From: Octopus vulgaris
Taxonomy: Eukaryota
Reading direction: 5' to 3'
Assembly: GCA_951406725.2 (NCBI GenBank)
Contig: OX597817.1
Location: 108,252,001-108,316,000, forward strand
DNA: 64,000 nucleotides
Position 1 is the first letter of the stretch. The number at the start of each line of letters is the position of its first letter. Below are positions 40,615 to 43,600 of this stretch, piece by piece. The position numbers were made by a program.

Positions 40615-43600
40615 ATACATGAATACATACATATATGTATCTCTTTGCGTTTGTATCTTTGTATGTGTTTGACAACCGGTGTTGCTATGTTTACGTTCCT
40701 GTAACTAGCAGTTCATCAAAAGATGTCGGTAGAATAAGTACAAAGCTTAGAAAACAAACCAACAAATAAAAATCTAAGTACTGGGTCGATTCATTCGACT
40801 AAAATTCCTCAAGGTGGTGCTGCAGCATGGCCACGATCTAATGACTAAAACAAATAAAAGATAATTTTTTGCGGTGGAGGTGGGAGTGTTCACGCTTGCT
40901 CTTGAGGGTTAATTCCCTTATTTATTTGTATTTTGGGGTCTACAATAACAGCAATGAGTGGGTGAAGAATAAAACACTCGGGTATTACTCAGAGTTGTTT
41001 CCCTTTAATTCAAAATATTAATAACGTTTTGTAGGAGGAAGGATAGTTTGAATTAAAAAAAAATAATCTTAAACTGTTACTTTTAATTAACAAATTTGGT
41101 ACTGCAAGTTAAAGAATATATTATTTGTTTCTTAAATAATTCCAAGTAGGTTTTAATCTAATTTTTAAATAGCAAGTTTTAACTAATAGCATTTATATTT
41201 TCTGACATAAAATACAAATGACTTTATTTTTATAATTGGTTTGTAAAGGTTGGTGAGCTGCAGAATCGTTTGGATATCAAAAGAAAAAAAAAAGGAAGAA
41301 AAATAAATTAGCGATATTTTATCTGACTCATGACATTGTGAGTTCAAAATCTTACTGCGGTCAAATTTGCTTTCCGTTCTTTTTTCTGTTTTGAGGGGTC
41401 GTGGAGGTTTGATAAAAATAAACTATTAATCTCCCTTGAAAATTGCTGATCTTGTGCTAAAATCAGAAACGATTAAGATGGCGAAGTGGCAGAATTTTGC
41501 AACGTCGGAAAAGAAGAAGCAAAAAGAAAAGAAAAAGATGTCACAAAGTGTTTTGTTCTGGTTTACTCCGAGATCAACTTTTCCTTTTCATACTTTTGGG
41601 GTCGATACTTTATCGACCTAGGTATTTTGGGTCGATAAAGTATCACTCAAGTATTTTGTCTAAGGTACACTTGCTGAATTCTTGTTCTCCGATGTCCTCT
41701 ATAGGTACCCCATTTGGCAGGCATGTGTGAAAAGCTGACGTCGGATTACCACGAACTTGTCACGAACAGAGAATCTGGGCTACTGACGTTTGTTTGAATC
41801 TAGTAATAGTGGTTGTGATGCAGCAGCTAGTAGCTGTAACTACATAGGAAAATGTTTATTGCTTACACTTGTTGTTGCTCTTTGCTAGAAATATAACTTC
41901 GTCTCGAAGAATTCTTCGTACAAGGTCAGACAGCTGAAAGCAACATGGCTTTAGGTGGGTTATTCTGTTTGAACTGGAGAAAAAGTGAGTGAGTGAGCGA
42001 GTAAGAAAGAAAGAGAGAGAGAGAGAGAGAGACAGATACGTAGATAGATAGATAGAGAGAGAGAAAACATTGAACGAATATGTACAAATAGATGCAGGAG
42101 TGGCTGTATGGTAAGAAGTTTGCTTCCCAACCACATGGTTCCAGTCCCATTGCGTTCAATCCCACTGCGAGGCACCTTGAGTATGTCTCTTCTACTAAAG
42201 CCTTGCGAATGAATTCGGTAGATAGAAACAGAAAGAAGCCCGTCGTACACACACAACACACACACGTGTGTGTGTGTGTTTGTTCCCCTACCACTGCTTG
42301 AAAGCGGTGTAGGTGTGTTTACGTCCTCGCAACTTAGCGGTTCGGCCTGAGAATCGATAGAATAAGTACCAAACTTAAAAAAGACAAAATAAGTACCGGG
42401 GTTAATTCATTCAACTAGAAATTCTTCAAGGCGGTGCTCCAGCATGGCCACAGTCTACTGCCTGAAACAAGCAGAAGGTGAAAGATATGAACTGACAAGT
42501 AGGCAATGCAATCTGCATATTATTAATTAGAATTTCTAATTTCTAGCAAATCAATATTGTTACTAATATTAAAAAGAAAAAAAATTGTTGGAAGACGAAG
42601 AGCAACGTTGATGACCTTCCAGATGGGTCAGTGATGATCAGTTCATGCACAAAAGAAAAAAAGAATGTCTGGTAGAGAAATAGATCGTAGCTCTGATGAT
42701 TGTGCAGTAGTGAAAACGCATTCCCCTTCCCACGTGACGAAGTCAGTTGTTGTAGCAAATCAGTAATAGTAGAGTCGTACGAGTTATTAATTGGAGTCAG
42801 TGTCAGTTACGTGATATATACGAGTTCGTGATATATATGCGAGTTACGTATATATCACGAGTTCGTGATATATATGCGAGTTACGTATATATCACGAGTT
42901 CGTGATATATATGCGAGTTACGTATATATCACGAGTTCGAGATATATATGCGAGTTACGTATATATCACGAGTTCGTGATATATAGGGCGGCGAGCTGGC
43001 AAAAACGTTAGCACACCGGGCGAAATGCTTAGCGGAATTTCGTCTGCCGTTACATTCTGAGTTCAAAATCCGCCTAGGTTGACTTTGCCTTTCATCCTTT
43101 CGGGGTCGATTAAATAAGTACCAGTTATGCACTGGGGTCAATGTAATCGACTTAATCCTTTTCTCTGTCCTTGTTTGTCCCCTCAATGTTTAGCCCCCCC
43201 CCCCCACCACCTGTGGGCAATAAAGAAATAGATATATACGAGTTCGAGTCATCGTGAAGGTAGACTTTTCAAAGCTATTGTCTTGCGGAGCTATCAGTGA
43301 TAGCAGGATAGACGAATCAAGGATTATAAGACGCGCAATACCGCCACAACACAATAGTGGCGACAAGAATATTACAGTGCCGACAATAAAATACAAGTGG
43401 ACGAGGATCCACATTATAACTGGCGACGAGGATATAAACATTTTACGCGGACAACGTTGAAAAACAAAAATATTTTCACGAGAAAATAAACAATTCACGC
43501 GGACGACGTTGAAAAACTTTTCACGTGGAGAAACTCAACTGGAGAGTAACAAACATTTTTGTTCTACTTATTTTACGAAAAATCCGTAAAATTATGGAAA

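What the first reader, a model, noticed from the sequence alone, without database searches (positions are those of the whole stretch)
41647..41973. Near-identical inverted copy of the PHPT1-like 5' UTR 39 kb downstream
Seen: only about 3 mismatches over ~240 nt of UTR, then a 26-nt frameshifting deletion. Both edges are homologous but much more diverged (acceptor ttccacAG vs ttctccAG; RYVLCKV vs KCTLDKI codons). Inference: either an old paralog with a recent gene-conversion tract, or selection to keep complementarity. A + strand transcript through it would be antisense to the PHPT1 leader and start codon, or could form a long dsRNA, which is relevant to the extensive ADAR editing known in coleoids.
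Basis: partly seen in the sequence, partly recalled or inferred. Interest (0 to 1): 0.7.

Follow-up and report, generated by a model that had tools for sequence, protein, structure and literature searches.

The report
Dead inverted fragment of PHPT1-like gene
About 320 bases from the front end of a phosphohistidine-phosphatase gene have been copied backwards into repeat-rich DNA 39 kb away, where the copy is broken and is most likely an ordinary by-product of DNA repair rather than a regulator.

Summary
The core observation is real. Window 2102-2351 (+) and 41713-41962 (-) are 250 nt with 3 mismatches. Copy B then lacks 26 nt (copy A 2352-2377), and 44 more nt follow with 3 mismatches.

Copy A is the leader and start of an intact 125-aa single-ORF gene of the PHPT1 (Janus/Ocnus) family. 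It is 96% identical to an Argonauta hians protein.

Copy B is a stand-alone piece of about 320 nt:
- No other PHPT1 piece and no collinear flank homology exists.
- Both reading frames end in stops.
- It sits between SINE-like repeats near a mariner relic.
- A copy-specific 15-nt perfect palindrome lies at one junction.
- It has no target-site duplication and no poly(A) tail.

The "diverged homologous edges" are not established. Anchored tests give P about 0.05 and 0.09, and the right edge fits the SINE tail equally well.

Mismatches cluster at the ends (P 0.003-0.007, post hoc). This allows a gene-conversion tract but does not prove one.

Nothing in the sequence supports an antisense, dsRNA or ADAR role.

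Verdict: an ordinary gene-fragment relic, of low interest. It is a likely source of read mis-mapping and false editing calls.

The parts
2102..2339 (+). Copy A, duplicated part of the leader just upstream of the PHPT1-like start codon (presumed 5' UTR). It contains a 6-codon uORF at 2118-2138 and a 14-nt palindrome at 2146-2159.
   Evidence: UTR status is inferred from position only. The AG at 2087-2088 behind a T-rich tract is a possible acceptor, read from the sequence.
2340..2717 (+). Copy A, intact single-ORF PHPT1-like gene (125 aa plus stop). Only its first 82 nt (2340-2421) are represented in copy B.
   Evidence: Pfam Ocnus PF05005, E 5.4e-33, 113.7 bits against a cut-off of 23. 96% identical to 'Argonauta hians 14 kDa phosphohistidine phosphatase-like'.
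2352..2377 (+). The 26 nt of copy A (codons 5-13) that are missing from copy B.
   Evidence: The residues encoded here are present in both relatives aligned, so this is a loss in B.
2798..2837 (+). Two poly(A)-signal-like hexamers (ATTAAA at 2798, AATAAA at 2832), 81 and 115 nt after the stop codon.
   Evidence: This is a motif match only.
41713..41962 (-). Copy B core: 250 nt with 3 mismatches to copy A 2102-2351 (B positions 41956, 41936, 41737). Includes the copied ATG at 41724-41722.
41669..41712 (-). Copy B after the 26-nt gap: 44 nt matching copy A 2378-2421, with 3 mismatches (B positions 41698, 41680, 41671).
   Evidence: tblastn 23 aa, 56.5% identity, E 0.001.
41643..41668 (-). Ambiguous junction zone, about 55% identical both to PHPT1 codons 28-36 and to the tail of the SINE-like repeat. 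Holds the stop codons of both frames.
41963..41975 (-). Ambiguous left edge: 11 nt plus an AG behind a pyrimidine-rich microsatellite. Similarity to copy A 2087-2101 is not significant.
   Evidence: Anchored test reached by 128 of 1500. No source for these bases elsewhere in the window.
41604..41644 (.). Perfect 15-nt inverted repeat with an 11-nt spacer, abutting the end of PHPT1 homology. It is made by about 30 nt that four other copies of the same SINE-like repeat lack.
   Evidence: DNA hairpin dG -16.6 kcal/mol, z -8.55, 0 of 200 shuffles as stable.
41301..41661 (+). Two partial SINE-like repeat copies. The second is cut off where copy B begins.
41985..42070 (.). GA-rich / GAGT microsatellite flanking copy B on its high-coordinate side.
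   Evidence: TRF 42004-42064.
42109..42487 (+). Another SINE-like repeat copy on the far side of copy B.
39337..40020 (+). Mariner/Mos1-type transposase relic, 1.6 kb from copy B. Context only; not shown to be linked.
   Evidence: Pfam HTH_48 E 2.8e-24 and Transposase_1 E 1.8e-12.

Best explanation
Copy B is a non-functional, stand-alone inverted duplicate of about 320 nt. It copies the leader, the start codon and roughly the first 27 codons of the PHPT1-like gene that lies 39 kb away.

Origin (inferred): a stretch of the gene, or of its transcript, was copied as a patch during repair of a break, or by a template switch, inside a SINE-like repeat. Three features fit such an event:
- the small size and inverted orientation;
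- the absence of a target-site duplication and of a poly(A) tail;
- a copy-specific fold-back palindrome exactly at one junction.

The internal 26-nt loss and the stops show that copy B cannot make PHPT1 protein (shown).

The near-identity of its centre means one of two things: the copy is young, or, at about even odds, its middle was re-copied from the parent gene by ectopic gene conversion while the ends kept drifting. I assign it no function.
For: - One copy only, and no other PHPT1 piece. The other tblastn hits have E of 0.14 or more, and the best of them on the minus strand downstream of copy B is a chance match preceded by a stop.
- Between window 39000-45000 and 1-5000 the only substantial HSP is the 320-column one. 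The other 71 of 72 are microsatellite or short matches of 37 columns or fewer.
- The copied coding part carries residues conserved in two relatives, so the direction is gene to fragment.
- Polarity of changes: B has E18 and E24 where all three proteins have V and G, so these are derived in B. A has R27 where B and both relatives have K, so this is derived in A.
- Frames are broken, and neither B peptide gives a Pfam match.
- Repeat context.
- Junction palindrome absent from 4 of 4 other SINE copies aligned.
- No TSD: the best match is 8 of 10, equalled in 254 of 400 control window pairs.
- The size fits experimentally recovered templated sequence insertions, 73-414 bp with a median of 191 (PMC5110952, part 1 of the text read).
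- It is the youngest-looking dispersed repeat in the window.
- Mismatch clustering is compatible with conversion.
Against: - A simple young copy does not predict mismatches bunched at both ends (P 0.003-0.007, post hoc).
- Weak similarity continues past both ends and includes an AG behind a pyrimidine tract on the left. This could mean an older and larger duplicate.
- The junction palindrome could be an older feature of that SINE copy, unrelated to the insertion.
- No microhomology or filler origin was demonstrated.
- Absence of function is inferred from context. Transcription, small RNAs and cross-species conservation were not testable with the tools at hand.
Confidence: 0.7

Rival explanations
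1. Copy B is the last recognisable piece of an old paralogous PHPT1 gene copy. The rest has eroded or was displaced by repeats, and this piece stays recognisable only because gene conversion from the live gene keeps renewing it.
For: - Mismatch gradient: centre 1/223, edges 5/69.
- 16 of 28 identities just past the right end, with a conservative peptide (KCTLDKILE against RYVLCKVYD), BLOSUM score reached by 1424 of 200,000.
- An AG behind a pyrimidine tract at a similar distance on the left.
Against: - The flank tests are marginal: 74 of 1500 and 128 of 1500.
- The right-edge bases fit the SINE tail equally well.
- No further PHPT1 codons exist anywhere downstream on the minus strand.
- There is no collinear homology in 6 kb around copy B.
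- A step from 93% to 57% identity within a few bases would need several nested conversion events.
Confidence: 0.12
2. Copy B is kept because a + strand transcript through it pairs with the PHPT1 leader and start codon. The pairing could give a natural antisense RNA, an endo-siRNA or piRNA source, or an ADAR substrate that regulates PHPT1.
For: - Pairing potential is real: 250 nt with 3 mismatches, a 198-nt perfect run and a computed duplex energy of -475 kcal/mol.
- The repeat-rich setting is of the kind where gene fragments can feed small-RNA pathways (recalled, not tested).
- Sense-antisense pairing is reported as an editing substrate in some metazoan lineages (PMC9989829, passages read).
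Against: - There is no sign of a + strand gene or promoter. No Pfam-bearing ORF other than a mariner relic was found among the 118 ORFs scanned.
- A TTTT run lies at the SINE/B border.
- Cis pairing would need 39 kb of read-through past two poly(A)-like signals.
- No structured-RNA signal.
- Complementarity is explained by recency or conversion alone.
- The coding end of the fragment has drifted as freely as neutral DNA.
Confidence: 0.05
3. Copy B, or the perfection of its centre, is an assembly or polishing artefact. For example, PHPT1 reads recruited to a diverged paralogous site during polishing could have homogenised it.
For: A perfectly identical 198-nt centre with diverged ends is also what mis-recruited reads would produce during consensus polishing (inference).
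Against: - The window has no N or gap between the copies.
- Copy B has its own 6 substitutions, its own 26-nt gap and unique junctions on both sides.
- A 320-nt piece is shorter than any long read.
Confidence: 0.06
4. Copy B is an exon of an unannotated minus-strand transcript. It would be spliced in through the AG at 41974-41975, behind the CT-rich microsatellite, as a non-coding exon or as the alternative first part of another gene.
For: A long pyrimidine tract followed by AG lies directly upstream on the minus strand. If the copied leader includes promoter-proximal sequence, it might also drive transcription (speculative).
Against: - No coding exon with a family match lies downstream on the minus strand.
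- The ORF from the copied ATG is 25 aa.
- The pyrimidine tract is a microsatellite, which gives acceptor-like sites by chance.
Confidence: 0.05

Closest known systems
Templated sequence insertions (class 2 TSI/TSIP): break repair by a patch copied from a distant locus (Onozawa and Aplan; PMC5110952, part 1 of 4 read)
   Same: - A short piece is copied from elsewhere into an unrelated site; about 320 nt here against 73-414 bp in their assay.
- There is no target-site duplication and no poly(A) tail (sequence).
- One junction carries a repair-like scar.
   Different: - The donor lies only 39 kb away on the same molecule.
- The event is fixed in an assembly of a cephalopod, not observed as it happened.
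- Microhomology at the junctions could not be shown, because about 27 nt on one side and about 12 nt on the other are of ambiguous origin.
Duplicated (non-processed) pseudogene fragments and ectopic gene conversion between a gene and its pseudogene
   Same: - A partial copy with a frameshift and stops.
- It is nearly identical to the parent in a bounded tract, with more differences at the ends of the homology block.
   Different: - Only about 320 nt are copied, with no flanking intron or intergenic homology.
- Conversion is not demonstrated, because no outgroup DNA was available.
Snap-back and templated insertions of polymerase-theta end joining, and template-switch repair (PMC4912351, PMC5068794: search listing and start of abstract only; MMBIR-type models recalled)
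   Same: - A local 15-nt fold-back duplication at the junction.
- Inverted orientation of the copied piece.
- An internal 26-nt skip.
   Different: Such insertions are usually tens of bases (recalled). A 320-nt tract copied from 39 kb away is long for that pathway. No enzyme can be inferred from sequence.
Pseudogene-derived antisense RNAs and endo-siRNAs (PMC3616710, PMC2708354: listing and start of abstract only; mouse-oocyte cases recalled), and sense-antisense ADAR substrates (PMC9989829, passages)
   Same: A gene fragment in inverted orientation that could pair with the parent mRNA over 250 nt.
   Different: No evidence that copy B is transcribed or yields small RNAs, and no evidence that the PHPT1 leader is edited. 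Membership is untested.
Janus/Ocnus (PHPT1) family, Pfam PF05005. In Drosophila, tandem duplicates janA, janB and ocn are known (recalled).
   Same: Copy A is a full-length member. The family is prone to local duplication (recalled).
   Different: Copy B is not a gene copy. It is a 5' fragment in inverted orientation without the catalytic part of the domain.

Membership tests
PHPT1 / Janus-Ocnus family (copy A) | Match to Pfam PF05005 above the gathering score, over the whole domain | tested here: met
   E 5.4e-33, 113.7 bits against a cut-off of 23; profile positions 2-108 of 108.
PHPT1 / Janus-Ocnus family (copy A) | Uninterrupted ORF of family-typical length with close orthologues | tested here: met
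   125 aa. 96% identical to the A. hians protein P0001 and 77% to P0002, both at 100% coverage.
PHPT1 / Janus-Ocnus family (copy A) | Catalytic histidine | not tested
   H55 in the FHADIF motif is invariant in the 3-sequence alignment. That this is the catalytic residue is recalled, and no reference enzyme was aligned.
PHPT1 / Janus-Ocnus family (copy B as a gene) | Open reading frame covering the domain | tested here: not met
   The 26-nt loss leaves a 25-aa ORF from the ATG. The PHPT1 frame stops after 23 aa. 0 Pfam families for either peptide at E up to 10. No further pieces.
Processed pseudogene / LINE-mediated retrocopy (class 1 TSI) | Target-site duplication | tested here: not met
   The best flank match is 8 of 10, equalled or beaten in 254 of 400 control window pairs.
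Processed pseudogene / LINE-mediated retrocopy (class 1 TSI) | Poly(A) tail after a poly(A) signal at the 3' end of the insert; the copy is anchored at the 3' end of the mRNA | tested here: not met
   No A-run at either end. The fragment is the 5' end of the gene and stops at about codon 27-36.
Processed pseudogene / LINE-mediated retrocopy (class 1 TSI) | Spliced structure (an upstream exon joined on, the intron absent) | tested here: inconclusive
   The upstream exon of copy A is unknown. The 15 nt upstream of the B core have no convincing source in the 2 kb before copy A; the 1417 hit is a MITE terminal repeat.
Class 2 templated sequence insertion (break-repair patch) | Short insert templated from a distant locus, without TSD or poly(A) | tested here: met
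   About 320 nt from 39 kb away. No TSD. Size range 73-414 bp in PMC5110952.
Class 2 templated sequence insertion (break-repair patch) | End-joining marks at the junctions (microhomology, filler, local duplication) | tested here: inconclusive
   A copy-specific 15-nt fold-back lies at one junction. Both junction zones are of ambiguous origin.
Gene-conversion tract between paralogous sequences | A high-identity tract bounded by clearly homologous but more diverged flanks | tested here: inconclusive
   Mismatches cluster at the ends (717 of 100,000; Fisher P 0.0032, post hoc). Homology beyond the block is marginal (74 of 1500 and 128 of 1500) and is confounded by the SINE tail.
Gene-conversion tract between paralogous sequences | Tree conflict between tract and flanks when orthologues from other species are added | not testable with these tools
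   No cephalopod DNA collection is on hand. Only two related proteins were found.
Regulatory antisense / endo-siRNA pseudogene or ADAR dsRNA substrate | Complementarity long enough to form dsRNA | tested here: met
   250 nt with 3 mismatches, 198-nt perfect run.
Regulatory antisense / endo-siRNA pseudogene or ADAR dsRNA substrate | Transcription of the antisense arm, small RNAs or clustered A-to-G changes | not testable with these tools
   No expression data are available. Sequence context gives no + strand gene.
Transposable element (the repeat itself being mobile) | Multiple copies, terminal repeats or TSD, no host coding sequence | tested here: not met
   Two copies only in 64 kb. No TSD. 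It contains conserved PHPT1 codons.

The most novel reading that the evidence does not exclude
Copy B is a lineage-specific trans-acting regulator of the PHPT1-like gene. It would be transcribed from the + strand out of the surrounding repeats, giving an RNA that pairs with 250 nt of the PHPT1 leader and start codon. That pairing would feed siRNA or piRNA production or ADAR hyper-editing. Ectopic gene conversion from the parent gene would be what keeps the pairing region near-perfect while the useless ends decay.
Probability: 0.05. Interest if true: 0.55.

Novelty: new member of a known kind. Interest (0 to 1): 0.15.

Why it matters
The value is mainly practical.

- **Annotation.** Copy B should be annotated as a pseudogene fragment, not as an exon or gene.
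- **Read mapping.** Its 198-nt perfect match to the PHPT1 leader will make short RNA reads multi-map.
- **False editing calls.** At three of the six diagnostic positions the gene has G where the fragment has A: 2108/41956, 2410/41680 and 2419/41671. PHPT1 reads misplaced on copy B would therefore look like A-to-G editing and like transcription of a second locus. In a coleoid, where editing calls are of special interest, this is a concrete false-positive trap.
- **Mechanism.** If the centre-versus-edge pattern holds up with outgroup DNA, the locus would be a small, clean example of ectopic conversion acting on a 300-nt homology block, or of a templated repair patch in a cephalopod genome.

Tried and rejected
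- **More PHPT1 pieces near copy B.** tblastn gave 'DAELEIHN' at 40511-40488 (-) with E 9. In context it follows a stop and lies in AT/GT microsatellite-flanked repeat DNA. Rejected as chance.
- **Source of the 15 nt upstream of the B core** (a possible upstream exon, which would point to a spliced RNA template). There were 7 matches with up to 3 mismatches, against 2.9 expected. The one upstream of copy A (1417-1431) is the terminal inverted repeat of a MITE-like element and is not followed by a donor. Rejected.
- **Structured or known RNA.** Rfam gave 0 hits at gathering score over the whole window and 0 hits at E up to 1 for 1900-2500. Around copy B there were 3 sub-threshold hits (18-19 bits against gathering scores of 50-90), all on the junction palindrome. 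Folding z-scores are -1.63 for the sense leader and +0.25 for the + strand of copy B. Nothing there.
- **Target-site duplication.** None above background.
- **Capture inside a transposon.** No terminal inverted repeats bracket copy B in 40500-43500. The mariner relic is 1.6 kb away and shows no link.
- **Bacterial-type promoter and terminator scan.** Not meaningful for this eukaryotic DNA; ignored.
- **Literature.** A full-text search for 'PHPT1' with 'octopus' found 3 papers and listed 2, neither relevant. I found nothing in print on this locus with that one search.

**Not done**
- The genome-contig collection holds only bacteria and archaea, so it was not scanned.
- No cephalopod DNA, read or RNA-seq resource was available.
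- No supplementary files were consulted.
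Full report
**What is there**

The window is AT-rich (35% G+C), has no N and is full of dispersed repeats. The repeat finder gives, as the longest of 146 inverted pairs, arms 2102-2351 and 41713-41962. They are 250 nt long, 99% complementary and 39,361 nt apart. blastn extends the match to 2102-2421 against 41962-41669: 320 columns, 6 mismatches and one gap. A pairwise alignment places that gap at copy A 2352-2377, exactly 26 nt. The mismatches are at 2108, 2128 and 2327, and after the gap at 2392, 2410 and 2419. 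From 2420 onward identity collapses: 16 of 28, then noise from 2448.

**Copy A**

The ORF 2340-2717 encodes 125 aa that match Pfam Ocnus (Janus/Ocnus family, the PHPT1 family) over the whole profile: E 5.4e-33, 113.7 bits against a cut-off of 23. The closest named protein is 'Argonauta hians 14 kDa phosphohistidine phosphatase-like', at 96% identity and full length. A second, unnamed relative (P0002) is 77% identical. The window therefore comes from an argonaut-like octopod, and nothing in it looked human.

The coding region is a single ORF. It was searched as such, so no spliced model had to be joined. The 238 nt before the ATG are called a 5' UTR only because of their position. An AG at 2087-2088 behind a T-rich stretch may be an acceptor, but the upstream exon and the start site are unknown.

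**Copy B is a stand-alone broken fragment**

- From the copied ATG (41724) the frame runs 25 aa to a stop.
- In the PHPT1 frame 23 aa are readable and then a stop follows. Neither peptide matches a Pfam family at E up to 10.
- tblastn with the whole protein finds only this piece (E 0.001). All other hits have E of 0.14 or more. The one that looked suggestive on the same strand (40511-40488) is preceded by a stop and lies in repeat DNA.
- Of 72 HSPs at E up to 10 between 39000-45000 and 1-5000, one is the 320-column match. The other 71 are microsatellite or short matches of 37 columns or fewer. There is no collinear flank homology of the kind a segmental duplication would leave.

The direction is gene to fragment, because copy B contains codons conserved in both relatives. 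Polarity can be read at three sites. B carries E18 and E24 where all three proteins have V and G, so these changes happened in B. A carries R27 where B and both relatives have K, so this change happened in A.

**Setting**

A Pfam scan of 118 stop-to-stop ORFs of 75 aa or more found only three things outside the PHPT1 ORF itself, which was scanned separately:
- a mariner/Mos1 relic at 39337-40020;
- one sub-threshold hit;
- no other gene.

On its low-coordinate side copy B abuts two partial SINE-like copies on the + strand (41301-41661). On the other side lie a GA-rich microsatellite and another SINE-like copy at 42109-42487.

Exactly where PHPT1 homology ends there is a perfect 15-nt inverted repeat, 41604-41618 / 41630-41644, with an 11-nt spacer. 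As DNA it folds far better than shuffles: dG -16.6 kcal/mol, z -8.55, 0 of 200 shuffles as stable. The roughly 30 nt that create it are absent from all 4 other copies of that repeat that I aligned. I aligned 4 copies chosen from the blast list, not all copies.

There is no target-site duplication: the best match is 8 of 10, equalled or beaten in 254 of 400 control window pairs. No A-run lies at either end.

**The edges**

- An anchored, gapped extension score from each boundary was reached by 74 of 1500 random window segments on the right and 128 of 1500 on the left. Fixing the B side instead gives 77 and 124 of 1500.
- A fixed-length test of the right edge looks stronger. 16 of 28 identities was reached by 77 of 200,000, and the 9-codon BLOSUM score of 10 was reached by 1424 of 200,000. 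The length for these tests was picked after seeing the alignment.
- The same 27 nt (41643-41669) match the tail of the SINE-like repeat about as well as they match PHPT1: 13/27, 8/19, 14/27 and 9/24 to the SINE copies, against 15/27 to PHPT1.

I therefore treat both edge zones as being of ambiguous origin.

**Young copy or conversion tract?**

The A/B pair is the most similar dispersed repeat of 100 nt or more in the window. It is 98% identical outside the gap, and every other dispersed pair is 92% or lower. Only a tandem array scores higher. So the copy is either younger than the repeat insertions around it or has been renewed.

The six mismatches are not evenly spread. The longest clean run is 198 of 292 columns, reached in 717 of 100,000 uniform placements. 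Splitting into ends and centre gives 5/69 against 1/223, Fisher P 0.0032. Leader against coding gives 3/238 against 3/54, P 0.079. These partitions were chosen after looking, so the true significance is weaker.

The pattern is what ectopic gene conversion on a short homology block would give: the centre is renewed while the ends drift (established idea, recalled). It is also compatible with chance in a young copy, and with homogenisation by read mis-recruitment during polishing. Without outgroup DNA I cannot separate these, and I put conversion at about even odds within the main explanation.

**How it most likely arose**

This part is inferred. Seven features together fit a templated patch laid down during repair of a break, or a template switch, inside a SINE:
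- a piece of about 320 nt;
- inverted orientation;
- a donor 39 kb away;
- no duplication of the target;
- no poly(A) tail;
- an internal 26-nt skip;
- a copy-specific fold-back at a junction.

Patches of 73-414 bp without target-site duplication are described as class 2 templated sequence insertions (PMC5110952; I read part 1 of 4: abstract, introduction and first results section). Snap-back and in-trans templated synthesis is described for polymerase theta (PMC4912351 and PMC5068794; search listing and start of abstract only). Whether the template was DNA or RNA is open.

The hallmarks of a LINE-type retrocopy were tested and not met: target-site duplication, poly(A) tail and anchoring at the 3' end of the mRNA.

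**The functional reading**

The two arms could certainly pair: 198-nt perfect run, computed duplex energy -475 kcal/mol. Sense-antisense pairing is reported as an editing substrate in some, not all, animal lineages, and young nearby repeats are the main substrates (PMC9989829, passages read). Coleoid transcript-wide editing is mentioned in the argonaut genome paper (PMC9635652, passages read).

Nothing in the sequence, however, suggests that copy B is transcribed on the + strand.
- No gene was found there.
- Two poly(A)-like signals follow the PHPT1 stop at 2798 and 2832. One RNA holding both arms would need 39 kb of read-through.
- No known RNA family matches, and neither strand folds unusually.

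Recency or conversion explains the complementarity without selection. I give this reading 5%.

**Practical consequence**

At 2108, 2410 and 2419 the gene has G where the fragment has A. PHPT1 reads mis-mapped to copy B would mimic A-to-G editing of a minus-strand transcript there.

**What stayed unchecked**

- Cross-species DNA, read-level support, expression and small RNAs. No cephalopod DNA or RNA resource is among the tools.
- Genome contigs holds only bacteria and archaea and was not scanned.
- Supplementary files were not consulted.
- Statements marked 'recalled' come from no call. These are the Drosophila janus/ocnus duplicates, the mouse endo-siRNA pseudogenes, the edge effect of conversion and the MMBIR models.

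**Verdict**

A real, non-chance inverted duplicate, correctly described at its core. It is best explained as an ordinary dead gene fragment, with conversion possible and regulation unlikely. Interest is low.

Noticed in passing
window 41604-41644: A perfect 15-nt inverted repeat with an 11-nt spacer sits at the junction of copy B. It is created by about 30 nt that four other copies of the same SINE-like repeat lack. It forms a strong DNA hairpin (z -8.55). An 8-nt direct repeat (41622 and 41651) lies beside it. It reads like a fold-back repair scar.
   Followed up: partly
window 39337-40020 (+): Mariner/Mos1-type transposase relic: an HTH_48 domain and a partial DDE domain in consecutive ORFs separated by a stop, with the rest missing.
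   Followed up: partly
window 42805-42985: A tandem array of a 37-nt unit, 4.9 copies at 97% match. The unit is itself partly palindromic. It lies next to a SINE-like copy.
   Followed up: no
window 1019-1047 and 1415-1443: Terminal inverted repeats of a MITE-like element of about 425 nt, 650 nt upstream of the PHPT1-like ORF. A related copy is at 56345-56490 (84% over 147 nt).
   Followed up: no
window 55796-55965 / 56229-56398; 47783-47904 / 48300-48421; 7882-8049: Closely spaced inverted repeat pairs (93% with a 263-nt gap; 96% with a 395-nt gap) and a 168-nt self-complementary stretch (92%). If transcribed, these nearby hairpin-formers would be more typical ADAR substrates than the 39-kb pair.
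   Followed up: no
window 2118-2138 and 2146-2159 (copy B: 41946-41926 and 41918-41905): The leader carries a 6-codon upstream ORF and a 14-nt perfect palindrome containing an EcoRI site. Both are kept in copy B; the uORF has one changed codon (the mismatch at 2128).
   Followed up: no
window 2376-2378 (codon 13) and copy B 41714-41712: Codon 13 is D in this window and in P0002 but N in the Argonauta hians protein. The deletion junction in copy B happens to read as an N codon. If the donor allele had carried N, the 26-nt loss would be flanked by a 3-nt repeat instead of 1 nt. This cannot be resolved without outgroup DNA.
   Followed up: no
window 40478-40864 and 39123-39223: The most heavily repeated stretches near copy B, with up to 94 and 103 matching segments within the window. 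They are largely AT/GT microsatellite plus a SINE-like tail.
   Followed up: no
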